From positions 5,418 to 69,417 of the forward strand of contig JACRPI010000013.1 of NCBI GenBank assembly GCA_016214075.1: a DNA stretch of 64,000 nt, given 5' to 3'. The stretch is from Candidatus Woesearchaeota archaeon (lineage in GTDB: Archaea; Nanobdellota; Nanobdellia; Woesearchaeales; DSVV01). Every line of letters begins with the position of its first letter. The first letter of the stretch is position 1. Under the pieces are notes generated by a model, which saw only the letters and a list, made by a program, of their open reading frames with translations, searched no databases and was not told the origin of the DNA. A program made the position numbers and the translations under genes. This document shows, in pieces, positions 1,352 to 59,708 of the stretch.

Positions 1352-2032
1352 TTACGAAAATGCAACAAGTTTCTCCAAAGTACGTTTATCTTCTTCACAA
1401 AAATGGAATGATGCTTGAGAATAATTATCTGCGTTCATGATACACTCCCCTTCCTTTAAATGATCCTGTGCTGGAAGATGATGCCCATATCCAAATATTC
1501 CATGACCTATCTCATGCGCGAGAAGTGAAGGATATGTTCTTGGTAAAACAATAGTCTCAGCGTGCATATCGATAAGTCCGCGTGCATGGTAGCGACCACT
1601 TGGTCCAACAGTAACTGGACCAAAAAGAGTATTATCTTCTCCTCTATAAGGCTGATAAAAAGGAATAATCCGAACAGTAAACCCTACGGGAGAATGGTGT
1701 TCGTCAGTTGCAATGGAATCAAGAGGCATGTATTCTGGAAAATTTTCTTCATCGTAGTACGCAAGACCGCGGAGTTGAAATTGAAGTTTTCCATGCGTCG
1801 GTTCTCCATATTGTTTGTTCAAATTGTGAAGAAGCGTATCAATTCTTTGTACTGAAATCACTTCTTCGGGAGATCCTTCTAACGGAAGTGGATATTTTGG
1901 AGAACTAATGACTGCAATATCAACAGGAACAGGGAGTTTTCGATGAACAAGATCCATAACGACATGAAACATATCCCCACGAGTGTCGTGCCAATATTGC
2001 GCTTGGTATTTTGCTGTTATGAGTTGTCGCAT
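1352..2032 (-). CDS. Zinc metalloprotease, metzincin-like (HEXXHXXGXXH)
   Basis: LLAHEIGHGIFGYGHH carries the extended zinc-binding motif with a third His. Downstream Cys residues (ECIM...FHFCEED) are reminiscent of archaemetzincins. Confidence 0.5.
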   Translation of the reverse strand: MRQLITAKYQAQYWHDTRGDMFHVVMDLVHRKLPVPVDIAVISSPKYPLPLEGSPEEVISVQRIDTLLHNLNKQYGEPTHGKLQFQLRGLAYYDEENFPEYMPLDSIATDEHHSPVGFTVRIIPFYQPYRGEDNTLFGPVTVGPSGRYHARGLIDMHAETIVLPRTYPSLLAHEIGHGIFGYGHHLPAQDHLKEGECIMNADNYSQASFHFCEEDKRTLEKLVAFS

Positions 2033-2044
2033 GAAATCACTTCT

Positions 2045-2788
2045 TTACTGAATCACGTCATCATACGGTTTTGTCGCGGCGATTTTCTTTGAACTAAAAT
2101 GCCACCATTCTGCGGTATTTTCTCTTGATGAAGAGTATGGAGTAAAAGAGGTACTCATCACTGTTCGGAGAAGCTCTCGCAAATCCAATATACTCTTTGT
2201 TGGATGTACAAAGTATCCTCTTTGCGCGAAAGCCATTGTATCCTCTTCTGTTTTTTTGTCTCGCGCATTATAAAATTCAGAATAAAGCGAAAATTCATCA
2301 AATTGCGAACCCATCCAAACTTCTTGACCATTCAGTGTTGCAAGGGTCACATCAAGTGTTCTTCCATAATTGTGCCCTGAATATTTCCCTTCTGTTCTGT
2401 TAATATAAGCAACCCATTTACCTACATGTTTTCCTTTTCCTGCTTGTTCTTGTTCTCTGCCCCACTGCATCATTGCTTCTGATGCTTGTATAGGTCTGTA
2501 CGCGTCTTTGACAAGAAGTTGGAGCCCATATTGTTTGAGTGTAGCATTTGCTTGAATGAGATCCTCAACAATTTCTGGATATGTCCATGCTTTTGCTGCT
2601 TCGTAGCCAGGCAATACTTTTCCCATAAAATTTCTTGTTGTCGCGTAGACAGGATCAACGAGAACAGAGGCGTTTCTGTTTGCGGAATATCGTTCAATAC
2701 TTACAAATGGATTTGCTGCTGCGAAAGCAGTGTTCGGTACAAGAAGACGAGCAATAATCATTTCTAGAAAATTTCTTCTGGTTGTCAT
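2045..2788 (-). CDS. D-Ala-D-Ala dipeptidase (VanX/DdpX, peptidase M15D) with a twin-arginine (Tat) signal peptide
   Basis: N-terminal MTTRRNFLEMI matches a Tat motif (RRxFL). VanX signatures are present: YATTRNFMG, YSGHNYGRTLDVTL (SxHxxGxAxD) and EWWHF. Confidence 0.8.
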   Translation of the reverse strand: MTTRRNFLEMIIARLLVPNTAFAAANPFVSIERYSANRNASVLVDPVYATTRNFMGKVLPGYEAAKAWTYPEIVEDLIQANATLKQYGLQLLVKDAYRPIQASEAMMQWGREQEQAGKGKHVGKWVAYINRTEGKYSGHNYGRTLDVTLATLNGQEVWMGSQFDEFSLYSEFYNARDKKTEEDTMAFAQRGYFVHPTKSILDLRELLRTVMSTSFTPYSSSRENTAEWWHFSSKKIAATKPYDDVIQ

Positions 2789-2790
2789 CG

Positions 2791-3369
2791 TTATTTTCCC
2801 TCATGCAATTCTGGAAACAGAATTCTATCATCTAAAGGTGTTCGATAATCTTTGAAGCGAATAGGCACTGATTCTGCGGGGGTTCTTTTACAGACAACAA
2901 GATGAAGATGTGGACCTGTGGAAAGTCCAGTATTCCCGCTCCATCCAATCGGTTGTCCTTGTTCTACTCTTGTCATTTTTCCTGTCTTTTTCCAACGTTC
3001 TTTTAATTCATAATCAACGCCTTGGAAGTAAAGGTGCGCGTAAATAGCGAATGTCCCATCATTATGACGGATGGTCACATAATTTGTTTCTTTTGTTGCT
3101 TTTCTTCGTAACAGAGGGTCTGCGTCTTCATCCAGAAAATGTGTATAATTAAATCTTCCAGAGTCTCGCCAGTCCGCAAGAAAGCCTGCTCGTGCGGCGC
3201 GAAGTTGCGTTCCTTCTTCTAATCCAAAGTCTATTGCGTATGTGCTATCATGGAAAGCTCTTGATTTTTTATGTGTTCCAGGAGCTCGTTTTCTATACCC
3301 TCCAAAGAAACCTTGAGTGATTTCTGGAACTGTTGAAAAAGGAAGAATGTAGGTCATTAAACTTGCCAC
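2791..3369 (-). CDS. M23-family (LytM/lysostaphin-like) metallopeptidase
   Basis: FAIYAHL and GQPIGWSGNTGLSTGPHLHLVV match the M23 HxH/GxxG-TGPHLH region. An upstream FHDSTYAIDF is H...D-like. The ORF overlaps the next gene by 13 nt, which suggests an operon. Confidence 0.75.
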   Translation of the reverse strand: MASLMTYILPFSTVPEITQGFFGGYRKRAPGTHKKSRAFHDSTYAIDFGLEEGTQLRAARAGFLADWRDSGRFNYTHFLDEDADPLLRRKATKETNYVTIRHNDGTFAIYAHLYFQGVDYELKERWKKTGKMTRVEQGQPIGWSGNTGLSTGPHLHLVVCKRTPAESVPIRFKDYRTPLDDRILFPELHEGK

Positions 3370-4487
3370 CCATATCTCTGAGCAATTCTATTAAAGAAAG
3401 GGTGAACTAAAATGGGAATTCCTGTTTGCTGATATGCTTGTTCGTAGAATGCTCTTGGAACAACTTGTGTTTGAGGAACTTCCACACGTTCACAGCCCAC
3501 AATCTTTGACCATGCGTATGGCTGTTCTCGTTTTGCTTTATAGATTATTCGTAAGGGATGATTTTTATCTTGAGCAACGTCAACGAGCGTATCAAAAACA
3601 GGATGTGCTGCTCCATTGAGAAATGCAGTAATTCCAGAATCTTTTCCAGGAGGAGTGTTTACAAAAATATCCCAATACTCTAAGACCAGTTCTGCCACAA
3701 CCCCTCGTAGTCTGGAAATTTCAGAAGAACTGGTTAAGGATCTATCAACAGCATATCCTATTGCCTCTTCTCCTTTTCGTTGAAGCGCAACTCTATACAC
3801 TTTTTGGTGAAGTCGCTTTATTGTTTTTCCAATCTTAACAGGAGCGTATGCGTAATCATCTTCGTCATCAAGAGTTACTCCAATTTCTCTGCAGAATTGT
3901 CTTGTCCCTTTAACTCTTAATGCTCTGAAACTCAATCCAGAATATTTTGCAGCTTCTTTTGTATCTCCTGCGTCTGCTGCTTTCATTGCTTTTTCTATAA
4001 AATGAGCAGAAGGTGTTTTTTCCACTGCTTTGTTTACGATCTCCTCAAGCTTTCCGTTTTCAATAGCAGGTTCTAAAGTAACTTCAGAAAAATCAATTCG
4101 TACAGTATAACTACTACACGCATTTTTGATGTGCGTATCTGTTTCTTCAAAATCTCCTTGCCCTGCAAAAATATCCGCAACCTGTTGTTGTGTCGTTCCG
4201 TAAAGAGCAAATGCTTCTCGTAAAACTCGTGTCGCTTCTCCATGTACTGATGGACTTCTTTTGAGAATAGCGGAGTAGACATCAAGAACTCTTCTGAAAT
4301 CATCTTCTTCAACTGCTACTCTTTTCATTCGTTGATACTCTGCTTCTTCAGAACGAGGGAGAGGAGCATTGTAGCGAGGAGTAGGAAAATTACTCTCCTT
4401 TAAAGGAGAGTTCTCATTCAATAAAAATTTATCACTTAAATTACCCCATAACGGAGTAATTATTTTTTGGTCATCAAATTTAGCCAT
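3357..4487 (-). CDS. Hypothetical protein (376 aa), co-oriented with the peptidase genes
   Basis: Long ORF with no motif recognisable by eye. Overlaps the M23 gene. Confidence 0.5.
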   Translation of the reverse strand: MAKFDDQKIITPLWGNLSDKFLLNENSPLKESNFPTPRYNAPLPRSEEAEYQRMKRVAVEEDDFRRVLDVYSAILKRSPSVHGEATRVLREAFALYGTTQQQVADIFAGQGDFEETDTHIKNACSSYTVRIDFSEVTLEPAIENGKLEEIVNKAVEKTPSAHFIEKAMKAADAGDTKEAAKYSGLSFRALRVKGTRQFCREIGVTLDDEDDYAYAPVKIGKTIKRLHQKVYRVALQRKGEEAIGYAVDRSLTSSSEISRLRGVVAELVLEYWDIFVNTPPGKDSGITAFLNGAAHPVFDTLVDVAQDKNHPLRIIYKAKREQPYAWSKIVGCERVEVPQTQVVPRAFYEQAYQQTGIPILVHPFFNRIAQRYGWQV

Positions 4488-4535
4488 GTTATCATTACCT
4501 TGTTTTCATTATTCATTCATAAATATTTTTGTGCT

Positions 4536-5420
4536 TTATGGGCATGCAATAATCCTCACTTTTCGTTCTATTCCCTGCACAGTATCTATCATTTTATATG
4601 AAACTCCTTGAATTTGTATAGTTTTTTCATCTTTTTGTGGTTCTGCCTGACCGTACAACGCGTCAAAGACTTCCCAGGGAAAATGTGCTTTATCAGAAAA
4701 TAATGTGTCTGTCAATCGAGAAACCAAATCCCAATCACCTGCTCGAACAGAGCGTGAAACAACGATCAACGGAGTTTCAGGATCAGATGTTACCGTTGTT
4801 TCATCACCATAATCTCCAACCATAACAGTCCGCAGTGTTTCATATCCAACTGGCGCGATCAATCTTCGCGCGAGATAAAGGTCTTTTCCATGCGACACTG
4901 GTGTTTTTGTGTGTGGATTAACGTATCGTGTAGTTTCATCAAATGGTTCTCGCGTTTGTTTATGAACGACAGAAAATAAATGAATTGTTTCTTGACGTCT
5001 TTCTTGCTGAAGGCGCTGATATTCTTCACTTTGGTCTTGACCCGTTTCAAGAAGTTCTTCTATTCTTGCGCTTCTCTCTTGGGCTCGATGTCTTCCTGTA
5101 CTAGTTTCTTCATCACTAAGAAAAGCAATTCTTGCTTGATAATCGTCATCCACCTTTCTAAATGTTCCATCTGGCAGCACATACAGTTCTCCTCTTTTTT
5201 CTCCAATGCTTTCTCTTCCAAAATATCCATCAAGGAGGGTATTAACTGAAGCAAGGCATTCTTCTCTGTGATTCAGCGCGGTTGTTGCGATGTACAGTCT
5301 TCGTCCTTTCTCTTTCTGGTTCTTTAAAAAATCTGAAACACCAGGATAGAGCCCCAACCATTCTTCTCTCCAATTTCCAAGCGTCTCGTCTTTATCCAAA
5401 AAAAGAATGTCAAGCGTCAT
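4536..5420 (-). CDS. HAD-superfamily hydrolase-like protein
   Basis: N-terminal LFLDKDETLG resembles HAD motif I (DxDxT). MVGDYGDE resembles motif IV. A long insertion sits between them. Confidence 0.4.
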   Translation of the reverse strand: MTLDILFLDKDETLGNWREEWLGLYPGVSDFLKNQKEKGRRLYIATTALNHREECLASVNTLLDGYFGRESIGEKRGELYVLPDGTFRKVDDDYQARIAFLSDEETSTGRHRAQERSARIEELLETGQDQSEEYQRLQQERRQETIHLFSVVHKQTREPFDETTRYVNPHTKTPVSHGKDLYLARRLIAPVGYETLRTVMVGDYGDETTVTSDPETPLIVVSRSVRAGDWDLVSRLTDTLFSDKAHFPWEVFDALYGQAEPQKDEKTIQIQGVSYKMIDTVQGIERKVRIIACP

Positions 5421-5423
5421 TTC

Positions 5424-6203
5424 TTACACCCCAACATACGAAGGAATTGCAGTACCAACCTTTTGAAATCCCTTAACCTCAATTCCCGCTTTTTGTATTC
5501 TTCTTTCAGTCTCCACATCAAGAAGTACTACTCCTTCTGTGCTCAGAACTCCTCTCAAATTGTACATCACTTTCTCTATATTTTGATCAGGAAAGTATTT
5601 TAAGATGTTTCTACAGGTAATAACATCAAAAGGAAGATCTGCTATTGTAGTAAGAGCGTCAGTATCAAGAACACTGCATTCCTCAAATCGTACTGCGTCT
5701 CGTAGTTCTGGAGCGACAGTGTATATTTCTCCGCTTTGGGGAAGATATTTTTCTTGCATCGCTATTGGCAGTATCTCATCTGTAATATTCAGGCTGTAAT
5801 ATGCTCCTTTTCTTGCGATGCGAAGTGCTGCAGGATTGACGTCAATGCCAACGATTGTTGTTTCAGCGAGTCTTCCCCCTTCTGCAAAATACATTGCGAT
5901 AGAATATGCTTCAGCGCCTGTTGAACAACCTGCGGACAAAACTCGAGGTGCTCTATTTCTCTGGCATAATGCATACACAATTTCTCCTATCATATTTCTA
6001 TTAAAAAATGTTGTCGAAGGACAAATAGAGGCAAGATTTGTTTCTCGCGATTCAGGATTTTCTGCTATTTGTTCTAATGTTGTACAGATGCTTGTAACAC
6101 AAGCAGAATCAGAAAGATCAAAGAGAATTGCTGCATCCATGCCTGTAAATCTCGAGACGAGTTCAATGGTTCGAGAACGAGTGTCTTCGTGTTGTTTTGT
6201 CAT
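5424..6203 (-). CDS. CheR-type SAM-dependent methyltransferase domain protein
   Basis: RVLSAGCSTGAEAYSIAMYF and FDVITCRNILKYF match CheR signature regions. No other chemotaxis genes occur in the window. Confidence 0.65.
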   Translation of the reverse strand: MTKQHEDTRSRTIELVSRFTGMDAAILFDLSDSACVTSICTTLEQIAENPESRETNLASICPSTTFFNRNMIGEIVYALCQRNRAPRVLSAGCSTGAEAYSIAMYFAEGGRLAETTIVGIDVNPAALRIARKGAYYSLNITDEILPIAMQEKYLPQSGEIYTVAPELRDAVRFEECSVLDTDALTTIADLPFDVITCRNILKYFPDQNIEKVMYNLRGVLSTEGVVLLDVETERRIQKAGIEVKGFQKVGTAIPSYVGV

Positions 6204-6242
6204 CGCTGTTACCTTGTTCCTTTTATTTCTAAATAGTTTTAT

Positions 6243-6827
6243 TTATTCACTCACATACCCATACCCTTCATAATAACTTTCATCAACTAAACGAATGTCA
6301 AAATCTTTTTCTGCGACAACAACATTCCACGAATCACAGCCGTATTTCTTTCCCCAGGAAATTTCTTTAGCAGGATCATAGTCATAATCATCGCAGGTAA
6401 TAGTAACAAGGTGACATTCCCATTCTGTTTCGCAGGTATATTCAAAATCATAACATGCTTCAAAGCCATAGTCTGAACAATATTCCTCAATACGATCTTC
6501 TTCAGATTCCGCGAATGTCTGATCATCATCGCTAGATGCAATATCACGCGCTTCGTCATATTCCGCTTCAAAAGTCTTTAACTCATTATATTCCTCAAAG
6601 ATCGCCTGCTTTTCTTCGTCAGTTAAACCATAATCTGTGCTTTCGTATTGTGCGCCTTCATAGCCTTTCACCACATGCTCAATTTCATACGAAGTATAAG
6701 TTCCTTCAGAAGGATACGTATATGCAATTTCTTGAGAAGTCTCAGTACCATCCATAAACAAGAGTACAGTAAGTGCAAAGAATGCGAGTACTCCAATGCC
6801 GAAAATAAATTGTAGTGTTTTTTTCAT
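6243..6827 (-). CDS. Secreted/membrane-anchored acidic Cys-containing protein (hypothetical)
   Basis: Start moved to the internal MKKTLQFIFGIGVLAFFALTVLLF (signal peptide/TM). The mature part is highly acidic with several Cys. Confidence 0.45.
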   Translation of the reverse strand: MKKTLQFIFGIGVLAFFALTVLLFMDGTETSQEIAYTYPSEGTYTSYEIEHVVKGYEGAQYESTDYGLTDEEKQAIFEEYNELKTFEAEYDEARDIASSDDDQTFAESEEDRIEEYCSDYGFEACYDFEYTCETEWECHLVTITCDDYDYDPAKEISWGKKYGCDSWNVVVAEKDFDIRLVDESYYEGYGYVSE

Positions 6828-7098
6828 TTTTTCCTTCTTCTCTCTTTTTTTCAATAGACAAACACATTCCACAAATCGCCTTGCAAGTCCTTGAACACAA
6901 TTCATCCTTTTATTATTTTATTAAATAAAAATAATACTGAATATGATCAAGCGACTCTAGTACGCGGTAAATGGAACTATACGACAATAAAAAGAAAGGA
7001 GCCAGCATTCCAAAGGAATGCCCCCAACCTTTCCAAAACACCTAAGAAACCCGCTTATATTTAAAGGTTTCGCTATTTTATCACTATTGAGTGGTTAA

Positions 7099-7701
7099 TT
7101 AATGAAGAGAAAAGACTTTCCCCATCAATCTGCCTGTGCCATCTCTGTATGTCTCAACATGGAAGAGCTCGCTATGAGCTGCAACTCCATCACTTTGCAT
7201 AAGAAGCATATATGTTCCTTGCCTTGTGTGCTGTCTCATAAATCGCGCGACTGCAAGCTCATTATCTCCTCCATTAAAGACCGTGTCAATTATGGAAGGG
7301 CGTAATCGAAGTTGAACATACGTTCTCATGTCAAGGAAATCTCCATACGCAAGAATAGGATATGGTGATTCGTTCACAACAGGTAAAAGTCCTTCTTCTC
7401 GAAGTTTTCCAATTCGTTTTTCAGCAAGTGCATGAATGCGTCTGTCTCCTTCTACGGAGTACGTTCGCATATTATATGCTGCGCCGAGTGCTGCGACACG
7501 GCCATCGCCGCCTCCTGCGTCAAGAAACACATCCCCATACTGTAAAAATCCTTCTTCTGATAAGACATGGAAAAGATCCTTCAAATAATCAATTCTCGTT
7601 GGTCGATAGCAGCCAATCGAAGTTGCTCTGTGCCGTCTTTCTTCATCGGAAAATCTATTATAAAATCGAACAATGTCATCGATACGTCGTTGATCTATCA
7701 T
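7099..7701 (-). CDS. Hypothetical protein with a Rossmann/SAM-MTase-like glycine motif
   Basis: VFLDAGGGDGRVAALGA resembles SAM-binding motif I. Confidence 0.35.
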   Translation of the reverse strand: MIDQRRIDDIVRFYNRFSDEERRHRATSIGCYRPTRIDYLKDLFHVLSEEGFLQYGDVFLDAGGGDGRVAALGAAYNMRTYSVEGDRRIHALAEKRIGKLREEGLLPVVNESPYPILAYGDFLDMRTYVQLRLRPSIIDTVFNGGDNELAVARFMRQHTRQGTYMLLMQSDGVAAHSELFHVETYRDGTGRLMGKVFSLH

Positions 7702-7734
7702 AGAAGAAAGAATCGTATTTGAAAATATAAAGGT

Positions 7735-8385
7735 TTATAGCGATGCAAACGGGTTATACCGCGGATCGAGGAACTGCGGAAACGAACTCTTTCTCAATGC
7801 TTCTTCATGCATCTGTATAAGTGCGGGTAAAGGACATGCTTCTCTGAACGCGGTAAGATAGATTTCAGCTCGTCGAGCGCGCTCAGGATTCGTGTATGGT
7901 TCGCAGGGTGTTGGATCAATAATTCGTCCGATACATCCTCCTAAAGCAAAGAACAATTCATTGCAAATCCCTCTGTCTCTTTGTCGTTCATCCTCAATCT
8001 TTTGTCCAAAATATTTCTCCAAATATGCGTCATCCACGAGGATAAATTCATCAGGTACTGCAAGAACAGGTTCTTCTCCCTCAAAAGCAAAATAAGGTCC
8101 ATCCATTTTTCTTTTAATGGAATCATAAGGCCATTGTTCTTGTAATCTTCTGAGAACAACGCCGTGCGCGTGCGTCTTGCCAATCAATCGAATCACTGCG
8201 TCTCCTGCTGCTGTTGGTTCCGATGTAGGATAAAAAGAAGTTGCGGTCTCTCTTTGTTCAGTCGACAGATATGGAATTCCTGCAAGAGTAAGATATGCAA
8301 GAAATGGGTTTTCTTGTTTCAAAGTTTCTGTTCGAGAATAAGATCCCCCTGCAACACGTTCCAAAATATACGCATCAAGGGTCAT
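7735..8385 (-). CDS. Hypothetical protein
   Basis: 216-aa ORF with compact spacing and no recognisable motif. Confidence 0.4.
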   Translation of the reverse strand: MTLDAYILERVAGGSYSRTETLKQENPFLAYLTLAGIPYLSTEQRETATSFYPTSEPTAAGDAVIRLIGKTHAHGVVLRRLQEQWPYDSIKRKMDGPYFAFEGEEPVLAVPDEFILVDDAYLEKYFGQKIEDERQRDRGICNELFFALGGCIGRIIDPTPCEPYTNPERARRAEIYLTAFREACPLPALIQMHEEALRKSSFPQFLDPRYNPFASL

Positions 8386-8451: not shown

Positions 8452-8655
8452 AGAGTTCCATAGGAAATGAAGGGGTTCCTACAGTAGTATACACATCAGT
8501 ATACTTAAACATTGTAATCACCACGACCAAAGAGTTCCATAGGAAATGAAGGGGTTGCCATAGCAGTATACAAAAGGCTATACTCAGCTTTACCGAGAAT
8601 AAGTGACAGTGATTGTGTGTTACTATAAAGGAGTTCCACAGGAAACAGGGGGGTT
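8452..8655. repeat. Three degenerate direct repeats: two identical 26-bp cores AGAGTTCCATAGGAAATGAAGGGGTT plus a diverged third, extending into a roughly 40-bp unit. They lie upstream of vapBC.
   Basis: Copies at 8452-8477 and 8531-8556 are identical. The diverged copy is at 8631-8655. Similarity continues 3' of each core (cctacagtagtataca vs gccatagcagtataca). Confidence 0.7.
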
Positions 8656-8714
8656 GTTACGGAGTTGGGGTAAAAGAGAAAGTATTAAATACATGTACAT
8701 ACATTTACTTTGCT

Positions 8715-8951
8715 ATGGCAACAAAATGTATTACTATAACTGTTGAAGCGTATGGGAGACTTGCATCACAGAAGCAGGAAAGAGAAAGTTTTAGTGATGT
8801 GATTAATAGGATAACTCCAAGAAAAAGTTCTTTATTGGATTTGGTAGGTTTACTTTCATCAAAAGAAGCTGAGGATATGAAGAAGCATATAGCTGAGGGA
8901 CGTAAAAGAACAGAAGAAAGAATGAATAAAATTGCGGAGTTGATGAGATGA
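8715..8951 (+). CDS. vapB: VapB-type antitoxin (archaeal MATKxITITxEAYxRL family)
   Basis: MATKCITITVEAYGRLASQKQERESFSDVI matches the common archaeal antitoxin N-terminus. It overlaps vapC by 4 nt. Confidence 0.7.
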   Translation: MATKCITITVEAYGRLASQKQERESFSDVINRITPRKSSLLDLVGLLSSKEAEDMKKHIAEGRKRTEERMNKIAELMR

Positions 8952-9340
8952 TATTCGATACAACATTCCTTATTGATGTTATGCAAAAAGATGAAAAAGC
9001 CTTATCTCTATTGCATCTATTTGGAGAGAAGAGCGAATATGGTCTTGTATCTGCGGTTTCTATTTTTGAATTACATAGTGGGCTTGCACATTCTGGAAAA
9101 TCTCTCTCCGAACAAAATAAAGTGAAAGAAGTTTTGGATAAACAGCGCATTATTCCAATAGATGCTCTTCTTGCAGAGAATGCAGGAGATATTCATGGAA
9201 CGCTTATAACGCGAGGTCAGATGATTGGTTCTATGGATTGTCTTATTGCGGCAACAGCACTTCGTTTTGGAGAAACTGTTTTGACAAGAAATGTGAAAGA
9301 TTTTCAAAGAATTTCTGGATTAAAAGTAGAGACGTACTAA
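8948..9340 (+). CDS. vapC: PIN-domain VapC toxin
   Basis: N-terminal MIFDTTFLID carries the PIN Asp. Conserved acidic residues follow. The 4-nt overlap with the upstream antitoxin is typical. Confidence 0.8.
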   Translation: MIFDTTFLIDVMQKDEKALSLLHLFGEKSEYGLVSAVSIFELHSGLAHSGKSLSEQNKVKEVLDKQRIIPIDALLAENAGDIHGTLITRGQMIGSMDCLIAATALRFGETVLTRNVKDFQRISGLKVETY

Positions 9341-12906: not shown

Positions 12907-12980
12907 TGGGGCTACCCAGATTTGAACTGGGGTCTTCCGGCCCCAAACCGGAAAGGATAGCCAAACTACCCCATAGCCCC
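12907..12980 (-). tRNA. tRNA-Pro (anticodon UGG), no encoded CCA
   Basis: Manually folded. 7-bp acceptor stem GGGGCUA/UAGCCCC, T-arm CCCAG-UUCAAAU-CUGGG, anticodon arm UCCGG-UUUGGGG-CCGGA, discriminator A. Confidence 0.7.
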
Positions 12981-30699: not shown

Positions 30700-31626
30700 A
30701 TGCTCATCAATGAAGAACTTTACAGGAGAATAAAGCAAAAGAAAAAACAGCTGGACAATCTCCGTCCATTTCCAAAAACAGCGTTAGAACGACTCAAAGA
30801 CCGTTTGCGATTGCTGTTTACGTACAATTCTAATGCAATAGAAGGAAATACACTGACATTAAGCGAAACAAAGCTTGTTGTGCAGGAAGGAATAACTATT
30901 GGTGGAAAATCATTGCGGGAACATAATGAAGCGATCAATCATCAAAAAGCAATTGAGTTTATAGAACAAGCAGTCACTGAAAAAAAACAGATTACAGAAG
31001 AACTTCTTTGTGAACTTCATGGAATCATCCTTGGTAATATCGAGGAAGAAGAAAAAGGAATGTACAGAAAAAGAAAAGTATGGATTGAAGGAGCGTCGTT
31101 TGTTCCCGCAAAGCCAGATCTAGTTCCAAAGCTGATGAAAGACTTTTTTGTCTGGCTCAACACAAATCCTGAAAAGTTAAATGAGATAGAACTGGCAGCT
31201 ATTGCGCATGAAAAGTTTGTATTTATTCATCCTTTTATTGATGGGAATGGAAGGGTTGGACGCTTGCTGACCTCGCTTATGCTTATGCAGAAAGGATTTC
31301 CTCCTTTGATTGTCCTCAAAACAGAACGACAGAAATATATTCGTGTGTTAGAGGCAGCGCACAATGAAAAATACGAATCTCTCGTCAACTTTATGGGAAG
31401 ATGTTTAGAACGGTCTTTGGTTATGTATCTTGAAGCATTAGAAACAAAAATAAAAGAGAATAAGGAGTATATTTCATTGCAAGAAGCGACAAAATATTGC
31501 GATTATAGTCAAGAATATTTGAGTTTATTAGCGAGAAGAGGACTTCTTGAAGCAGTAAAATTTCAACGAGATTGGATGACAACCAGAGAAGCGATTAAAG
31601 AATATAATTCGCGAAACAAGAAATAA
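30700..31626 (+). CDS. Fic/DOC-family protein (AMPylation-type)
   Basis: Canonical Fic motif IHPFIDGNGRVGRLL. Confidence 0.85.
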   Translation: MLINEELYRRIKQKKKQLDNLRPFPKTALERLKDRLRLLFTYNSNAIEGNTLTLSETKLVVQEGITIGGKSLREHNEAINHQKAIEFIEQAVTEKKQITEELLCELHGIILGNIEEEEKGMYRKRKVWIEGASFVPAKPDLVPKLMKDFFVWLNTNPEKLNEIELAAIAHEKFVFIHPFIDGNGRVGRLLTSLMLMQKGFPPLIVLKTERQKYIRVLEAAHNEKYESLVNFMGRCLERSLVMYLEALETKIKENKEYISLQEATKYCDYSQEYLSLLARRGLLEAVKFQRDWMTTREAIKEYNSRNKK

Positions 31627-38745: not shown

Positions 38746-39528
38746 TTACAAACATCCCCTATATTTTGCGACAGTGCGACGCGCAACAGATAGCTGGTAG
38801 AGTTCGTGAAGCGTTTCTGCGAGTTCTCTATCAGAAACAAGCCATTTTTTCCCATCAAATAAAGTGGGATCTCTTTGCAATTGTTGCAAAGCATACGTCC
38901 CTTGAAGAGCGAGAAGTTTTGCTCCAGGAATAAGCTCAGTAACAAAGCGATTTTTTTCGTATATATGGACAGTAAGAGTTCTGGTAAGACGGGATATGGC
39001 TGACTCGTCGCATCCAATGGAGTTTGCGACATCTTGCTGCGTGCGATGCTGCATGTTAAGAGGATTTTCTGTTTGAAGATATCTGTATTGAATCGGGCAG
39101 AGATATGCAATAATTTCTTTTTGTTTTTCCACAACCCAAGCTCTGTTTTTTTGAAGCGTAGTGTAAAACTCTCCATTTGCCCGCAGCGCTGCAAATCGCT
39201 CACTAAGACGTTGTTCCCAAAAGGGATTATACTCTACTTCCCATGTATATCGGCCATTCCAAGTATCAGTAAGGTGAATAGAAGCATAAAACTGCGGTAT
39301 TTCAAGAAGGTCTTGTCGTGAAATGCTCCTTGTTACTTTGTCCAGAGCTCTATTTACTGCGTAAAAAAACGTCGTCTTTGTCTCTTTTTCAGGAAGATTT
39401 TCTCTAAGAAACAGTTCTAATTCTAACGGAGAGAGTTCCATCATTACAGCTGCCAGAGGGTCGACACCAGAACGCACTTTGAATTCAAGTCTTAGATGTA
39501 AATCATCACTCATAATCATGCACTTCAT
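38746..39528 (-). CDS. Protein with a C-terminal sigma-54 (RpoN) DNA-binding-domain-like region; the N-terminal ~130 aa are unknown
   Basis: C-terminus LSVARRTVAKYRG matches the RpoN box ARRTVAKYRE. Upstream KKWLVSDRELAETLHEL resembles sigma-54 kPLSDqeIaelL. The HTH TQQDVANSIGCDESAISRLTRTL resembles the sigma-54 HTH (dvAeelg.heSTvSRa). It overlaps the upstream gene by 4 nt. Confidence 0.6.
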   Translation of the reverse strand: MKCMIMSDDLHLRLEFKVRSGVDPLAAVMMELSPLELELFLRENLPEKETKTTFFYAVNRALDKVTRSISRQDLLEIPQFYASIHLTDTWNGRYTWEVEYNPFWEQRLSERFAALRANGEFYTTLQKNRAWVVEKQKEIIAYLCPIQYRYLQTENPLNMQHRTQQDVANSIGCDESAISRLTRTLTVHIYEKNRFVTELIPGAKLLALQGTYALQQLQRDPTLFDGKKWLVSDRELAETLHELYQLSVARRTVAKYRGCL

Positions 39529-55238: not shown

Positions 55239-56042
55239 TCACAACAACAAAATAAAAACAACAATCGCAAGAATAATTCTATAATATCCAAACAATTTGA
55301 AATCATGGTTGGAAATATATCTCATGAGCCACGCAATCGCGAGCCAGGCAGTGATAAAAGAAACAACAAATCCAAGTGCAAGAGTAGAAAGCTGAAGAGA
55401 AGTAATATTATTCCCCTCTGTAAAATACACAAAAAGCGAATATCCTGACGCAGCAAGCAGCGTAGGAATTGCAAGAAAAAAAGAATATTCTGTGGCGGTT
55501 TTTCTGTTCAAGCCAAGGAGCATTGCGCCAATAATAGTTGCGGCTGCTCGAGAAATACCAGGAATCAACGCAAAACATTGAATCAAGCCAATAAAGAAAG
55601 CAGTCGCGTATCCAACTTGCACAATATCTGCCATCTTCTGTTTTTTTTCTGTAAACTGCTCTATGAAGAGAAGAAATAGCCCGCCAACAAGCAATGCAAT
55701 CGCAACAACCAACGGAGTAAAGAGTGTTTTCTGGATCCATGTACCAAATAAACCTCCGAGAAGGAGTGCAGGAAGAACACTAAGCAGTATTCTCTTCCAA
55801 ATTTCAAGAGTGTTTTGTCGTTCTTGAGTATTTTTTTGCACAGGAATAATTTTCTTTCGAAAATAAAGAAGCACAGCAAGAATTGCGCCAGATTGGATCA
55901 CGATATCAAAGAGTGTTGGAAACGCACCTGTAAATGAAATAATGTTGTTCACAAGAATCAAGTGTCCTGTGGAGGAGATGGGCAAAAATTCAGTAATGCC
56001 TTCAACAATACCAAGGAGCAGTGCGATAATGAGGTCGTTCAT
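55239..56042 (-). CDS. uppP: Undecaprenyl/dolichyl-diphosphatase UppP (BacA)
   Basis: GIVEGITEFLPISSTGHLIL signature. Start trimmed to MNDLII. Confidence 0.8.
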   Translation of the reverse strand: MNDLIIALLLGIVEGITEFLPISSTGHLILVNNIISFTGAFPTLFDIVIQSGAILAVLLYFRKKIIPVQKNTQERQNTLEIWKRILLSVLPALLLGGLFGTWIQKTLFTPLVVAIALLVGGLFLLFIEQFTEKKQKMADIVQVGYATAFFIGLIQCFALIPGISRAAATIIGAMLLGLNRKTATEYSFFLAIPTLLAASGYSLFVYFTEGNNITSLQLSTLALGFVVSFITAWLAIAWLMRYISNHDFKLFGYYRIILAIVVFILLL

Positions 56043-56152
56043 TCTCTGGAATAATGCGTTTTGGTATAAATTGCTTGTTGTTTTTTTTGACATACATAAG
56101 ATTTCAGCGTATAAAACGCATGCTAACAAAATTATAAACGCATAGCAACCTA

Positions 56153-56203
56153 AAACACGCACCAGCAAAACCAAATACACAATTCATCCTTTTATTATTC
56201 ATT
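56153..56203 (+). promoter_or_regulatory. Conserved promoter-like element (copy C)
   Basis: AAACACGCACCAGCAAAACCAAATACACAATTCATCCTTTTATTATTCATT, upstream of the YbjQ-family gene at 56257. Confidence 0.55.
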
Positions 56204-56571: not shown

Positions 56572-57453
56572 TTACCAATTTTTTGCTTGTTCTTGCAGCT
56601 CAAACAGGAGATATTTGAGCATGGGAAGAATATTTCCATCATCTGCTTTTTTTAACGCTGTATAATATCTTCTTTTGTTTTTGTTTTGAACAATAAGAAG
56701 AGGATATTTGTTTTTAAGAAGAATGTAATTAAGCAGCAACCTTCCTACCCTTCCGTTTCCATCAAAGAAAGGGTGTAATCGCTCAAAAACGCTATGAAAC
56801 TCGCTTGCTGTTTCCAGAGGGTGGAGATTATTTTTGTTATTATGATACCAGTCTAAAAGGTTATCAAGTTCAGTCTCAAGCAATTTGGCAGAGATAGGAA
56901 TAAGCGTGCCAACACGAACTTGTCCTGTTCTAAATTTTCCAGCATCTTCTGTAACTGTGTTTTTAAGTAATCGATGAAGTTCAAGAATGAACTCTTTTGA
57001 AATGTCTCCTTTAAGCTGTTGTTTCATGTAGAGAAACGCTTGCTTGTGATTCTCAGCTTCTTTAATGTCCCTAATTGGTTTTTCTTTAGGACTAATCCCT
57101 TCTTCAAGAAGCATCTTTGTGTCTTTATAGCTCAGTGTAGAGCCTTCTATTCGGTTCGTGTCATAAGTAAATTGAGTAATAATCTCATTTTCTAATTGAT
57201 ACAGTTCATCTGTTGCTGCCTGTTTAATCTTGTTTTGGTATTTTGTTTGTATCTCATCCAGTGTTTTGTTGTTCTGGGCAAAAAAAAGCGCGACTTTGTT
57301 AAATTCTTTTCCAAAAGCAGTTACATCTTTCGCAGAAGGAGGGTTGAGACCAATGTATCTTTCTATTTTTTTCCATTTATTGTCTGCGATTCGTGTTGAT
57401 TCTACAAGATAATAGTATTCTCTTCCGTTGACGTTCTTTTTTCTGACAAACAT
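56572..57453 (-). CDS. Fic/DOC-family protein (second paralog)
   Basis: Fic motif HPFFDGNGRVGRLL. Overall similarity to the Fic gene at 30700-31626. Confidence 0.85.
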   Translation of the reverse strand: MFVRKKNVNGREYYYLVESTRIADNKWKKIERYIGLNPPSAKDVTAFGKEFNKVALFFAQNNKTLDEIQTKYQNKIKQAATDELYQLENEIITQFTYDTNRIEGSTLSYKDTKMLLEEGISPKEKPIRDIKEAENHKQAFLYMKQQLKGDISKEFILELHRLLKNTVTEDAGKFRTGQVRVGTLIPISAKLLETELDNLLDWYHNNKNNLHPLETASEFHSVFERLHPFFDGNGRVGRLLLNYILLKNKYPLLIVQNKNKRRYYTALKKADDGNILPMLKYLLFELQEQAKNW

Positions 57454-58691: not shown

Positions 58692-59708
58692 ATGAGAATA
58701 GGCGTACCTAAAGAAGTATATCCTCTCGAAAGGAGAGTTATGATGCTTCCTGAAGCGGTAAGATGTTTGACAGAAGCAGGGCATCAGGTTTTTGTTCAGT
58801 CAGAAGCAGGAGTAGGGGTAGGTGTCTTCGATATTGACTATACTCGTGCGGGAGCAGAAGTTATTGCTGATGTAGAAGCGCTGTATGAGATCGCAGATTT
58901 GGTCGTCAAATTAAAAGCGCCTTCAGAGGCAGAATTTTCTTTGATGCACAGAGATCGTATTTTGTTTAGCATGTTTCATAGCGCACAGAATCCAGCCCAT
59001 GTTTATCATGCAGGAAAACAAGGGTTAACAGTAGTAGAGATGGAATCAATTAGGGACACAAAGAAAAGGAGAATGGTCGATCAAACAGATATCACTGGAA
59101 AAGCTGGTGTGTATTATGCACTGCGTCACAGCCTAAAAATACCTGATGAAATGCAAGCAATAGTATTAGGATATGGGAGTGTATCGAGTGGTGCAATAGA
59201 TGCGTGCGCAAAGCTAGGGATGAAAGTAACGATTATCAGGAGAAAAGATTTTCCGTATATTTCTGAGCATCTAAAAGATGCAGATCTGTTGATTAATGGA
59301 ATTAGTTGGCCTCAAGAGTGCAGAGATGAAAAAAGGTATTTAGTAACACGGGAAGACGTCAGAAATGCAGCGCATGGAATGGTCGTTTTAGATCTTTCTG
59401 TAGATTTTCCTAATCCTATTGAAACAGTTCGTCCCACAACATATGCGCAGCCATACTATCTCGATGAAGGTCATGTGCATGTGAGTATTTATGGATATCC
59501 AGGATTAGTGCCAATAACATCAAGTCGTATCTATAGTCAGCAGGTAACACCATTAACATTGTTGATTGCAAATAATGGCGGGCTTGAAGGGATCGAAGAG
59601 CGCGGAGATATAGGAAAAGCTATTCAAAGAGCAATTATTGATCCAACCAAGTTAAGATGGGAAAGATATCGCCAAGAAAGTGTAAGTCCTGGAAGCAGAA
59701 TTGAATAA
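58692..59708 (+). CDS. Alanine dehydrogenase/PNT-family NAD(P)-dependent dehydrogenase
   Basis: N-terminal MRIGVPKEVYPLERRVMMLPEAV...GHQVFVQSEAGVGVGVFDIDY matches the AlaDH/PNT N-domain. GYGSVSSGA Rossmann motif. Confidence 0.6.
   Translation: MRIGVPKEVYPLERRVMMLPEAVRCLTEAGHQVFVQSEAGVGVGVFDIDYTRAGAEVIADVEALYEIADLVVKLKAPSEAEFSLMHRDRILFSMFHSAQNPAHVYHAGKQGLTVVEMESIRDTKKRRMVDQTDITGKAGVYYALRHSLKIPDEMQAIVLGYGSVSSGAIDACAKLGMKVTIIRRKDFPYISEHLKDADLLINGISWPQECRDEKRYLVTREDVRNAAHGMVVLDLSVDFPNPIETVRPTTYAQPYYLDEGHVHVSIYGYPGLVPITSSRIYSQQVTPLTLLIANNGGLEGIEERGDIGKAIQRAIIDPTKLRWERYRQESVSPGSRIE

What the first reader, a model, noticed from the sequence alone, without database searches (positions are those of the whole stretch)
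1352..4487. Exported murein-hydrolase-like module in an archaeal genome
Three consecutive minus-strand genes encode a metzincin-like protease, a VanX-type D-Ala-D-Ala dipeptidase with a twin-arginine signal (MTTRRNFLE), and an M23 (LytM/lysostaphin-type) peptidase. The next gene overlaps the M23 gene by 13 nt. Archaea lack D-Ala-D-Ala-containing peptidoglycan, so the natural substrates would be bacterial cell walls. This hints at interaction with, or predation on, bacteria, or at acquisition from bacteria.
Basis: partly seen in the sequence, partly recalled or inferred. Interest (0 to 1): 0.6.

Follow-up and report, generated by a model that had tools for sequence, protein, structure and literature searches.

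The report
Murein-peptidase gene pair in Woesearchaeota
A tiny groundwater archaeon carries two bacterial-type cell-wall peptidase genes side by side, only one with an export signal; this fits published evidence that such archaea handle bacterial wall material, but it is not the fully secreted three-enzyme lytic module first proposed.

Summary
The genes are real, and the contig is archaeal: a Candidatus Woesearchaeota MAG with TFIIE, TruD and an archaeal tRNA m5C methyltransferase nearby.

- **M15D, 2045-2788(-).** This is a VanX-type peptidase with every VanX catalytic residue. Its MTTRR(N/S)FLE...AxA signal peptide is conserved across homologues.
- **M23, 2791-3357(-).** The fold and the HxH, His and Asp residues are intact. 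The canonical HxxxD histidine is Thr, and a conserved His lies 14 residues upstream of the Asp. It has no signal peptide in any of about 12 archaeal homologues. It most likely starts at ATG 3357, which gives a 1-nt TAATG overlap rather than 13 nt.
- **226-aa protein, 1352-2032(-).** The modelled fold is metzincin. It has no signal peptide and belongs to a very small family. A distant Woesearchaeal homologue sits in an unrelated neighbourhood, so it is not a stable member of the module.

Only the M23-M15D pair recurs, in four independent related assemblies. It lies inside a variable accessory island at a fixed chromosomal site. The nearest relatives outside this clade are bacterial (at most 36-41% identity), and GC content is native, so the acquisition looks old.

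Best reading: the pair processes bacterial murein peptides, more likely for salvage or remodelling than as a secreted lytic weapon. Murein hydrolases in Woesearchaeota are already published, so this is a new member of a known kind. Interest is modest.

The parts
2045..2788 (-). VanX-type (M15D) zinc peptidase precursor, 247 aa
   Evidence: PF01427 scores E=4e-23. The best PDB match is VanX 1r44, E=4e-12, with H139 and D146 aligned to VanX H116 and D123. R98, H139, D146 and E227 are invariant and H230 nearly invariant in 14 homologues. The protein is below the NCBIfam VanX and DdpX equivalog cut-offs.
2720..2788 (-). Signal peptide of the M15D protein (residues 1-23, MTTRRNFLEMIIARLLVPNTAFA|A) with a twin-arginine motif
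   Evidence: The sequence was read directly. The motif M[TVI][TS]RR(S/N/L)(F/V/L)L followed by an AxA-type site is conserved in P0025, P0028, P0029, P0030, P0032 and P0033; P0034 has a related RR N-terminus. It also lies upstream of the called start in L001. The N-terminal hydrophobic maximum is 2.03. The translocase used (Tat or Sec) was not determined.
2791..3357 (-). M23 metallopeptidase, 188 aa, catalytic domain only, no signal peptide
   Evidence: PF01551 scores E=1e-12. The AlphaFold model has pLDDT 77, and Foldseek top hits are ShyA, Csd1/2, EnpA, lysostaphin and LytM. D43, H108, H150 and H152 are invariant and H29 is nearly invariant. The canonical HxxxD histidine is T39. The start at ATG 3357 matches all homologues and NCBI protein P0038.
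1352..2032 (-). Small metzincin-like zinc protease (226 aa), no signal peptide; an inconsistent neighbour of the pair
   Evidence: HEIGHGIFGY.HH, C197.M199 and F211-C212..D215 are invariant. The model has pLDDT 70 and pTM 0.75. All significant Foldseek hits are metzincins: fragilysin, adamalysins/ADAM, MMP and viral matrixins. Only 27 representatives were found among 1.84 billion. It is present next to M15D in the window and L004 only. The distant homologue P0077 lies next to a TP_methylase gene.
3357..4487 (-). 376-aa protein of unknown function, immediately upstream of M23; specific to this genome among the loci compared
   Evidence: No hit in Pfam, NCBIfam, PHROGs, PADLOC or PDB. It has no counterpart in L001, L004, L005 or L144. 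An AT-rich TATA-like AAATATTTAT lies about 31-40 nt upstream of its ATG; calling this a promoter is inference.
6243..6824 (-). 193-aa N-terminally membrane-anchored, acidic protein with 6 cysteines; conserved member of the island
   Evidence: The 19-residue hydrophobicity maximum is 2.66, and 24% of residues are acidic in the 220-aa ORF as listed. It is 57-91% identical in L001, L004 and L005, and lies directly upstream of M15D in L005. No Pfam hit.
4536..6203 (-). Variable or partly conserved island genes: a CheR-like SAM methyltransferase (5424-6203) and a weakly HAD-like 294-aa protein (4536-5420)
   Evidence: CheR PF01739 scores E=9e-30. The HAD-IIIA match is weak (E=0.007, below cut-off). 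The CheR-like gene is shared with L004 at 90% identity. The 294-aa gene is unique to the window.
7099..8385 (-). Two further island genes of unknown function (200 aa with a DAGGGDGR SAM-binding-like motif; 216 aa)
   Evidence: No significant family hit. The 200-aa protein is conserved in L004 (85%) and L001 (41%). The 216-aa protein is conserved in L004 only (86%).
8613..9340 (+). VapB-VapC (PIN) toxin-antitoxin pair bounding the island
   Evidence: VAPB_antitox scores E=4e-15 and PIN E=5e-13. L001 carries an unrelated pair of 97-aa proteins at the same position.

Best explanation
A small clade of groundwater Woesearchaeota (DPANN archaea) carries a linked pair of zinc peptidase genes of bacterial ancestry. 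The genes sit in a variable accessory island at a fixed chromosomal site, between the Methyltransf_30/VapBC side and the RsmF-like tRNA methyltransferase.

The VanX-type M15D enzyme is made with a cleavable twin-arginine-type signal peptide and works outside the cytoplasmic membrane. There it hydrolyses D-Ala-D-Ala: the free dipeptide and possibly the D-Ala-D-Ala ends of murein stem peptides.

The M23 enzyme is a bare catalytic domain with a complete HxH/His/Asp site and a LasA-like distant first histidine. It cleaves murein peptide bridges or peptide fragments. How it reaches its substrate is unknown, because it has no signal peptide.

Since the archaeon is not known to make D-Ala-D-Ala murein, the substrate is bacterial wall material. 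The pair most likely serves salvage or local remodelling of murein peptides by an auxotrophic, bacterium-associated archaeon. It is less likely to be a secreted bacteriolytic weapon. The metzincin-like gene is a cytoplasmic neighbour, not part of the unit.

- Shown: domain identity, catalytic residues, signal peptide conservation, synteny, bacterial relatives.
- Inferred: substrate, localisation of M23, physiological role.
For: - Domain identity is secure.
- The VanX catalytic set is conserved: R98, H139, D146, E227 and H230.
- The M23 residues D43, H108, H150 and H152 are invariant and H29 is nearly invariant.
- The RR signal peptide is conserved in the archaeal clade.
- The M23-M15D pair recurs in four independent loci. 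It is adjacent in the window (2-nt gap) and in L144 (4-nt overlap). One secreted 289/309-aa gene lies between them in L001 and L004.
- The flanking genes are archaeal and syntenic: L37ae, Pcc1, prefoldin, ELP3 and RsmF at 78-95% identity.
- The 80 best M15D relatives among GTDB species genomes are all bacterial, at 21-36% identity. By a crude hydrophobicity test, about 70 of the 80 have a hydrophobic N-terminus, so exported VanX-like enzymes are the norm in this subfamily.
- The nearest non-archaeal M23 relatives are secreted DUF4124-M23 proteins, one of them from Steroidobacterales. They share the same non-canonical first-histidine arrangement.
- Neither protein has a wall-binding domain.
- The island GC (0.40) equals the rest of the window.
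- Published context: murein-active enzymes in Woesearchaeota/Nanoarchaeota (PMC8204110, PMC9723730, PMC12352652).
Against: - No activity data exist.
- M23 has no recognisable export signal in any homologue. If it stays in the cytoplasm it cannot touch a bacterial wall.
- The canonical HxxxD histidine of M23 is missing. The model is poorly confident in that stretch.
- No Tat translocase gene was seen in the 64-kb window. The rest of the genome was not available.
- No peptide transporter, alanine racemase or other salvage gene is linked to the pair.
- Genes in compact DPANN genomes are tightly packed anyway, so adjacency is weaker evidence than in larger genomes.
Confidence: 0.5

Rival explanations
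1. Bacteriolytic or host-wall-breaching weapon. The archaeon uses M23 (a cross-bridge endopeptidase) and M15D together, perhaps with the large lytic transglycosylases known from Woesearchaeota, to open the wall of a bacterial host or prey at the contact site. M23 would leave the cell without its own signal, for example as a folded passenger of the Tat-targeted M15D (a hitchhiker mechanism known for some Tat substrates; own knowledge) or by a contact-dependent route.
For: - M23 enzymes include classic lysins: lysostaphin, zoocin A, and phage tail or ejection proteins.
- A twin-arginine signal implies export of a folded protein. M23 and M15D are translationally close, with a 2-nt gap or a 4-nt overlap.
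- The island also holds toxin-like variable genes, such as a weak DUF3990/ART-PolyVal protein directly upstream of M23 in L004 and L144.
- The literature proposes predatory or episymbiotic Woesearchaeota with murein transglycosylases (PMC9723730, PMC8204110). Archaeal M23 proteins that kill bacteria have been shown in haloarchaea (PMC12352652).
Against: - There is no wall-binding or targeting domain, which the published archaeal hydrolases have (PMC12352652).
- VanX-type enzymes are dipeptidases and do not lyse cells (own knowledge of VanX, DdpX and PcgL).
- In L001 and L004 a separate secreted gene sits between M23 and M15D, which weakens the idea of an obligate M23-M15D complex.
- No lytic transglycosylase or secretion apparatus lies in the window.
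- Hitchhiking is pure speculation here.
Confidence: 0.22
2. The genes are merely neighbours that act on non-murein substrates. M23 and the metzincin-like protein would be cytoplasmic proteases of the archaeon. The M15D enzyme would trim some other D-amino-acid-containing or ordinary peptide at the cell surface. The cluster would be an accessory-gene dump with no common function.
For: - Two of the three proteins lack export signals.
- The island is mosaic, with different genes inserted between the same conserved ones in each genome.
- The metzincin-like family occurs elsewhere next to a housekeeping-type TP_methylase gene.
- M15D carries insertions relative to VanX, around residues 170-200 and 219-226, that could change specificity.
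- It is below the VanX and DdpX equivalog cut-offs.
Against: - The M23-M15D linkage survives in four loci while everything around it changes.
- Both families are, as far as is known, dedicated to murein or D-Ala-D-Ala peptides.
- The full VanX catalytic set, including substrate-carboxylate-binding residues such as R98, is conserved.
Confidence: 0.2
3. Remnant of a virus or other mobile element. M23 and M15 would be an endolysin or virion-associated lysin cassette of an integrated element.
For: - M23 matches PHROGs endolysin, tape-measure and minor-head families, and M15D weakly matches an endolysin PHROG.
- Signal-less M23 domains are typical of virion proteins.
- A toxin-antitoxin pair flanks the island.
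- A weak ART-PolyVal-like gene is present in relatives.
Against: - There is no close viral relative. The best IMG/VR matches are at or below about 31% identity for near-full-length M23 alignments, and M15D has a single 27% hit.
- There are no integrase, capsid, terminase or tRNA-adjacent attachment features in the island.
- The chromosomal site is the same in all the genomes compared, and GC is native.
- A virus of an archaeon would have no use for murein hydrolases.
Confidence: 0.05
4. Assembly or binning artefact: a bacterial fragment joined to, or binned with, an archaeal genome.
For: The source is a MAG, and both peptidase families are overwhelmingly bacterial.
Against: - The genes lie within a few kb of archaeal genes on one contig.
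- The same arrangement is seen in independent assemblies from NCBI, ENA, JGI and Logan, on contigs of 68-117 kb.
- There is no GC break.
Confidence: 0.01

Closest known systems
VanX / DdpX / PcgL D-Ala-D-Ala dipeptidases (MEROPS M15D, Pfam PF01427)
   Same: It shares the fold family and the full catalytic set: zinc ligands His, Asp and His, the catalytic Glu, and the Arg. Like Salmonella PcgL (periplasmic; own knowledge) and about 70 of the 80 bacterial relatives, it has an export signal.
   Different: Identity to bacterial relatives is only 21-36%. It is below the VanX and DdpX equivalog cut-offs. It has insertions of about 25 residues, plus about 8 residues just before the catalytic Glu. It carries a twin-arginine signal rather than a Sec-type one. 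It is encoded by an archaeon, and there is no van, ddp or dipeptide-permease context.
M23 peptidases: ShyA/MepM, lysostaphin and LytM (M23B), and LasA/beta-lytic protease (M23A)
   Same: It has the M23 fold and the conserved Asp, middle His and HxH. The distant first histidine (H29, 14 residues before D43) resembles the LasA arrangement His23...Asp36 (own knowledge, plus a weak alignment).
   Different: The canonical HxxxD histidine is Thr. There is no signal peptide, no LysM, SH3b, PG_binding or coiled-coil domain, and the protein is only 188 aa. It has two lineage-specific inserts (about residues 66-90 and 113-127). Its nearest relatives are secreted bacterial DUF4124-M23 proteins at 36-41% identity.
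Archaeal peptidoglycan hydrolases of Strock et al. 2025 (PMC12352652)
   Same: These are archaeal genes of bacterial type that act on murein. That paper reports them as prominent in Nanoarchaeota, including M23 homologues in four Nanoarchaeia genomes.
   Different: Those are defined as modular, with a catalytic domain plus a wall-binding domain. The two proteins here have catalytic domains only and would not be counted. No M15D/VanX-type enzyme is mentioned in that paper ('M15' and 'VanX' have 0 occurrences).
Large extracellular lytic-transglycosylase proteins of Woesearchaeota and Pacearchaeota (PMC8204110, PMC9723730)
   Same: They occur in the same archaeal group and carry the same implication: contact with, or degradation of, bacterial cell walls.
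   Different: Those are glycosidases of up to 3,000 aa that cut the glycan strand. Here there are two small peptidases that cut the peptide part. No transglycosylase lies in this window.
Metzincins (fragilysin, adamalysin/ADAM, matrixins)
   Same: The 226-aa protein has HExxH, a conserved Met after a Cys (a candidate Met-turn) and a model whose significant structural matches are all metzincins.
   Different: The third histidine lies one or two residues later than in HExxHxxGxxH. There is no Pfam or NCBIfam match and no signal peptide or pro-domain. The family is tiny, with 27 representatives. TM-scores are only 0.45-0.5 on a model of pLDDT 70.

Membership tests
Peptidase M15D (VanX-type D-Ala-D-Ala dipeptidase) | Match to the family profile PF01427 above the curated cut-off | tested here: met
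   82.6 bits against a cut-off of 27, covering residues 44-245.
Peptidase M15D (VanX-type D-Ala-D-Ala dipeptidase) | Zinc ligands His116, Asp123 and His184, catalytic Glu181 and Arg71 (VanX numbering; own knowledge of VanX) | tested here: met
   H139 and D146 align to H116 and D123 of 1r44. R98, H139, D146 and E227 are invariant and H230 is nearly invariant (EWWH) in 14 homologues.
Peptidase M15D (VanX-type D-Ala-D-Ala dipeptidase) | Orthology to VanX or DdpX proper (NCBIfam equivalog cut-offs) | tested here: not met
   NF033115 VanX scores 66.9 bits against 320. PRK10178 DdpX scores 67.5 against 176. It is a member of the family but not an orthologue of either named enzyme.
Peptidase M15D (VanX-type D-Ala-D-Ala dipeptidase) | Hydrolysis of D-Ala-D-Ala | not testable with these tools
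   Needs an enzyme assay.
Peptidase M23 | Match to PF01551 above the cut-off, and the M23 fold | tested here: met
   48.4 bits against 28.7. A profile of the family matches ShyA at E=4e-31. Foldseek top hits are ShyA, Csd1/2, lysostaphin and LytM.
Peptidase M23 | HxxxD motif (first zinc-ligand His four residues before the Asp) | tested here: not met
   D43 is present but the canonical His position is T39. The whole subfamily, bacterial relatives included, lacks it. Instead it has a nearly invariant His (H29) 14 residues upstream. This is comparable to the M23A/LasA spacing (own knowledge; weak alignment).
Peptidase M23 | HxH motif and the middle catalytic His | tested here: met
   H150-L-H152 and H108 are invariant in 33 sequences.
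Twin-arginine (Tat) signal peptide | (S/T)-R-R-x-F-L-K motif, a moderately hydrophobic h-region and an AxA cleavage site | tested here: met
   The sequence is T-T-R-R-N-F-L-E, then MIIARLLVPNTAFA|A. The motif is conserved in most homologues. Deviations: Glu in place of Lys, and one Arg inside the h-region of this copy (Gly in the relatives that retain this position).
Twin-arginine (Tat) signal peptide | TatA/TatC translocase encoded by the same genome | tested here: inconclusive
   None was found in the 64-kb window, either by a TatA-like pattern or by Pfam on most ORFs of 150 aa or more. The rest of the genome was not available.
Metzincin clan | Extended zinc motif HExxHxxGxxH | tested here: inconclusive
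   The sequence is HEIGHGIFGYGHH. HExxH is invariant, but the Gly and the third His are displaced by one or two residues.
Metzincin clan | Metzincin fold with a Met-turn below the zinc site | tested here: inconclusive
   All Foldseek matches with E<=1e-3 are metzincins, at TM 0.40-0.50, with viral matrixins in BFVD. C197-x-M199 is invariant. The model is only pLDDT 70, and the geometry of the turn could not be inspected.
Modular archaeal peptidoglycan hydrolases (Strock et al. 2025) | A catalytic domain plus at least one cell-wall-binding Pfam domain in the same protein | tested here: not met
   Only the catalytic domains were detected in either protein. The definition was read.

The most novel reading that the evidence does not exclude
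The whole variable island (about 1352-8385) is a host-interaction cassette of a bacterium-associated Woesearchaeon. In this reading the signal-less M23, the metzincin-like protease and the swappable genes would be effectors delivered to a bacterial partner. The swappable genes include an ART-PolyVal-like protein, kinase-like proteins, methyltransferases and the 376-aa unknown. Delivery would be either as folded passengers of the Tat-targeted M15D or through a contact-dependent route. The repertoire would parallel that of 'polyvalent' effector proteins of phages and conjugative elements, split here into separate genes.
Probability: 0.08. Interest if true: 0.7.

Novelty: new member of a known kind. 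Interest (0 to 1): 0.35.

Why it matters
If the pair acts on bacterial murein peptides, the peptide-cleaving half would join the glycan-cleaving enzymes already reported in Woesearchaeota. That would strengthen the case that some DPANN archaea live on or off bacteria rather than other archaea.

It also shows that surveys which require a wall-binding domain undercount archaeal murein-active enzymes.

The signal-less M23 next to a Tat-targeted partner is a concrete, testable case of how a minimal archaeon might export or use a bacterial-type hydrolase.

The gain is incremental, because the concept is published and no new mechanism is demonstrated.

Tried and rejected
- PADLOC gave only weak methyltransferase matches, so this is not a known defence system.
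- PHROGs and two IMG/VR scans found no close viral relative.
- Rfam found nothing in the window or in the conserved intergenic stretch.
It returned only bacterial loci and did not recover the source genome or its relatives, so it cannot show absence from other archaea.
- The metagenome scan added one new locus, L144.
- A TatA-like pattern search and Pfam annotation of most ORFs of 150 aa or more found no Tat component. This is inconclusive for the genome as a whole.
- PDB sequence searches for the 376-aa, 294-aa and 200-aa proteins gave nothing usable.
It is a lead, not a test.
- Cluster look-ups did not reveal the taxonomy of the 41-48% identical M15D relatives P0031-P0034.
- The ATP-grasp gene at 59701-60768 was checked as a possible D-Ala-D-Ala ligase. 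It is RimK/MptN-like instead.

Full report
**What is there.** The window carries a run of nine tightly packed minus-strand ORFs from 8385 down to 1352. The finding covers the last four.
- Pfam places 2045-2788 in Peptidase_M15 (PF01427, the D-Ala-D-Ala dipeptidase family) at E=4e-23. It places 2791-3369 in Peptidase_M23 at E=1e-12. Both scores are well above the curated cut-offs.
- NCBIfam agrees on the families, but both proteins are far below every equivalog cut-off.
- The 226-aa ORF at 1352-2032 and the 376-aa ORF at 3357-4487 have no family hit.
- Exact look-up shows that eight of the ten ORFs checked, including the M15D, metzincin-like and 376-aa proteins, are in the public protein collection. 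Seven of those are deposited under locus tags HZC31_024xx from an 84-kb contig of a Candidatus Woesearchaeota archaeon MAG. The 188-aa M23 protein from that contig was recovered.
- The neighbourhood is archaeal: an archaeal-type tRNA m5C methyltransferase, TFIIE-alpha, TruD and FtsZ.
- GC content is flat at about 0.40 across the island and the rest of the window.

**The VanX-like enzyme.**
- The best solved relative is VanX (1r44, E=4e-12). H139 and D146 align to the VanX zinc ligands H116 and D123.
- In an alignment of 14 homologues, R98, H139, D146 and E227 are invariant and H230 (EWWH) is nearly invariant. This is the full VanX catalytic set (residue roles from my own knowledge of VanX).
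- The N-terminus MTTRRNFLEMIIARLLVPNTAFA|A has a twin-arginine motif, a short hydrophobic core and an AxA site. The same M(T/V/I)(T/S)RR(S/N/L)(F/V/L)L...AxA pattern occurs in the homologues whose called start includes it. In locus L001 it lies in frame just upstream of the called start. Export is therefore well supported.
- Whether the Tat or the Sec route is used is open, because no Tat gene lies in the window.

**The M23 enzyme.**
- All of about 12 archaeal homologues, and the NCBI protein of 188 aa, begin MTY(I/L)LPFS. The start is therefore ATG 3357. It overlaps the upstream TAA by one base (TAATG) and follows a GGTGG. The GTG at 3369 that gives the 13-nt overlap is unlikely to be the start.
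- None of these proteins has an N-terminal hydrophobic segment.
- D43, H108, H150 and H152 are invariant.
- The histidine of the canonical HxxxD motif is replaced by Thr39. The whole subfamily shares this, including its nearest bacterial relatives. Those are secreted DUF4124-M23 proteins, one from Steroidobacterales, at 36-41% identity. The subfamily instead has a nearly invariant His (H29) 14 residues before the Asp.
- That spacing resembles LasA (His23...Asp36; own knowledge).
- The AlphaFold model (pLDDT 77) matches ShyA, Csd1/2, EnpA, lysostaphin and LytM. It is poorly confident around residues 14-30.
- I judge the enzyme probably active, but this is not shown.

**The 226-aa protein.**
- HEIGHGIFGY.HH, C197-x-M199 and F211-C212..D215 are invariant in six sequences.
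- The model (pLDDT 70, pTM 0.75) has significant Foldseek matches only to metzincins: fragilysin, adamalysins/ADAMs and MMP-10 in the PDB, and matrixin-like proteins in the viral library. TM-scores are 0.40-0.50. 'Metzincin-like' is therefore fair.
- An exhaustive profile search of 1.84 billion representatives finds only 27 relatives. Most of the 13 retrieved are about 200-255 aa with no evident signal peptide; the 1,018-aa outlier P0090 matched only over short repeated stretches.
- A 30%-identical Woesearchaeal homologue sits next to a TP_methylase gene with no peptidase nearby.

**Synteny.** Five related loci from independent assemblies place M15D at the same chromosomal site. On one side lies the L37ae-Pcc1-prefoldin...Methyltransf_30 block (L001 and L004). 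On the other lie the RsmF-like methyltransferase (L001, L005, L144) and ELP3 (L001, L005). Each flank is seen only where the contig reaches it.

| Locus | Order around the pair |
|---|---|
| Window | 376-aa / M23 / M15D / metzincin-like |
| L004 | ART-PolyVal-like 224-aa / M23 / secreted 309-aa / M15D / metzincin-like / CARDB protein |
| L001 | 247-aa / M23 / secreted 289-aa / M15D / NUDIX |
| L144 | ART-like ... M23 / M15D (4-nt overlap) / RsmF |
| L005 | membrane-anchored acidic protein / M15D / RsmF |

- The stable elements are M15D (70-92% identity), M23 (74-85%) and a 193-aa membrane-anchored, acidic, cysteine-bearing protein (57-91%).
- The metzincin-like gene, the CheR-like methyltransferase, the HAD-like gene and the 376-aa gene come and go.
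- A VapBC pair bounds the island in the window.
- The unit that deserves the name 'module' is therefore the M23-M15D pair, inside a mosaic accessory island.

**Origin.**
- A scan of one genome per GTDB species returned 533 relatives. The best 80 are all bacterial, at 21-36% identity.
- In a neighbour-joining tree the Woesearchaeal sequences form one tight clade. Four unassigned sequences (41-48% identity, three with an RR motif in the N-terminus) are its sister. The group is separated from all the sampled bacteria by a long branch.
- By a crude hydrophobicity test, about 70 of the 80 bacterial relatives have a hydrophobic N-terminus. Few have RR. Exported VanX-like enzymes are thus normal in this subfamily, as for Salmonella PcgL (own knowledge).
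- Five bacterial loci (three Smithella, one Syntrophaceae, one unclassified deltaproteobacterium) have an M23 gene about 1.5 kb from the M15D gene.
- No close viral relative exists in IMG/VR.
- Together with the native GC content, this points to an old acquisition from bacteria, with no identifiable donor.

**Function.**
- Shown: two murein-type peptidases with conserved catalytic residues are linked in several genomes. One of them carries a conserved export signal.
- Inferred: since D-Ala-D-Ala murein is not known in archaea, the substrate is bacterial.

Several points argue against a simple secreted lytic weapon:
- VanX-type enzymes are dipeptidases.
- Neither protein has a wall-binding domain.
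- M23 and the metzincin-like protein have no export signal.

I therefore favour processing of murein-derived peptides for salvage or local remodelling by an auxotrophic, bacterium-associated archaeon (0.5). A wall-breaching role is the main rival (0.22). It would need M23 to leave the cell, for example as a passenger of the Tat-targeted M15D, and nothing here tests that. A non-murein, merely-neighbours reading keeps 0.2.

**Comparison with the literature.**
- Large extracellular lytic-transglycosylase proteins have been reported in Woesearchaeota and Pacearchaeota and read as signs of episymbiosis with, or predation on, bacteria (PMC8204110; PMC9723730).
- Strock et al. 2025 found modular peptidoglycan hydrolases in about 5% of archaeal genomes. 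They were prominent in Nanoarchaeota and included M23 homologues in four Nanoarchaeia genomes. Two haloarchaeal enzymes were shown to kill a bacterium (PMC12352652).
- Their definition requires a wall-binding domain, so the proteins here would not be counted. M15 and VanX are not mentioned in that paper.
- The finding is thus a new member of a known kind. What it adds is a peptide-cleaving, non-modular pair with an unusual split in predicted localisation.

**Verdict.**
The corrections are the M23 start codon and the point that only one of the three proteins is exported.
- Interest is 0.35.

Noticed in passing
window 6825-7098 (minus strand), with L004:5520-5800 and L001:6270-6560: A non-coding stretch of about 270 nt lies between the 200-aa gene and the membrane-anchored acidic protein gene. 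By eye it is roughly 85-90% identical in DNA across three genomes. The adjacent 200-aa protein is only 41% identical between the window and L001. It contains a TTTAAATATAA box, a CATTCC/GGAATG hairpin and a T-run. It has no Rfam match, and its folding energy is unremarkable (z=-1.3). It may be a small RNA or a leader.
   Followed up: partly
window 8613-9340 (+): A VapB antitoxin and VapC (PIN) toxin pair sits at the edge of the variable island. L001 has a different pair of 97-aa proteins at the same place.
   Followed up: partly
L004:7793-8467 and L144:47-745: A 224-232-aa protein with weak similarity to DUF3990 and ART-PolyVal (an ADP-ribosyltransferase of polyvalent phage or conjugative-element proteins; both below cut-off) lies directly upstream of M23 in two relatives. 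In the window, the 376-aa unknown holds that position.
   Followed up: partly
L001:9102-9971 and L004:9042-9971: A 289/309-aa protein with a Sec-type signal peptide and no family match is inserted between M23 and M15D in two relatives. The two copies are 37% identical to each other, and the gene is absent from the window.
   Followed up: no
window 55239-56180 (-): An undecaprenyl-diphosphate phosphatase (UppP/BacA) scores above the NCBIfam equivalog cut-off (299 bits against 262). In bacteria this lipid-carrier recycling enzyme is tied to cell-wall synthesis.
   Followed up: no
window 58692-60768 (+): An alanine-dehydrogenase-like gene (AlaDh_PNT, below the equivalog cut-off) overlaps the start of a RimK/MptN-like ATP-grasp ligase gene. 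The ligase is not a D-Ala-D-Ala ligase.
   Followed up: partly
window 38746-39528 (-): A 260-aa ORF has a weak match to the sigma-54 DNA-binding domain (E=5e-9 in Pfam, far below the NCBIfam cut-offs). This is unexpected in an archaeon.
   Followed up: no
window 30700-31626 (+) and 56572-57453 (-): Two Fic/DOC-domain proteins are encoded in one 64-kb window.
   Followed up: no
L034, L039, L049, L061, L064 (three Smithella, one Syntrophaceae, one unclassified deltaproteobacterium): In 5 of the 80 bacterial loci that carry the related exported M15D gene, an M23 gene lies about 1.5 kb away on the other strand. The two families are therefore occasionally neighbours in bacteria as well.
   Followed up: no
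window 12907-12980 (-): ARAGORN finds a tRNA-Pro(TGG), but the Rfam gathering-threshold scan of the whole window reported no match at all.
   Followed up: no
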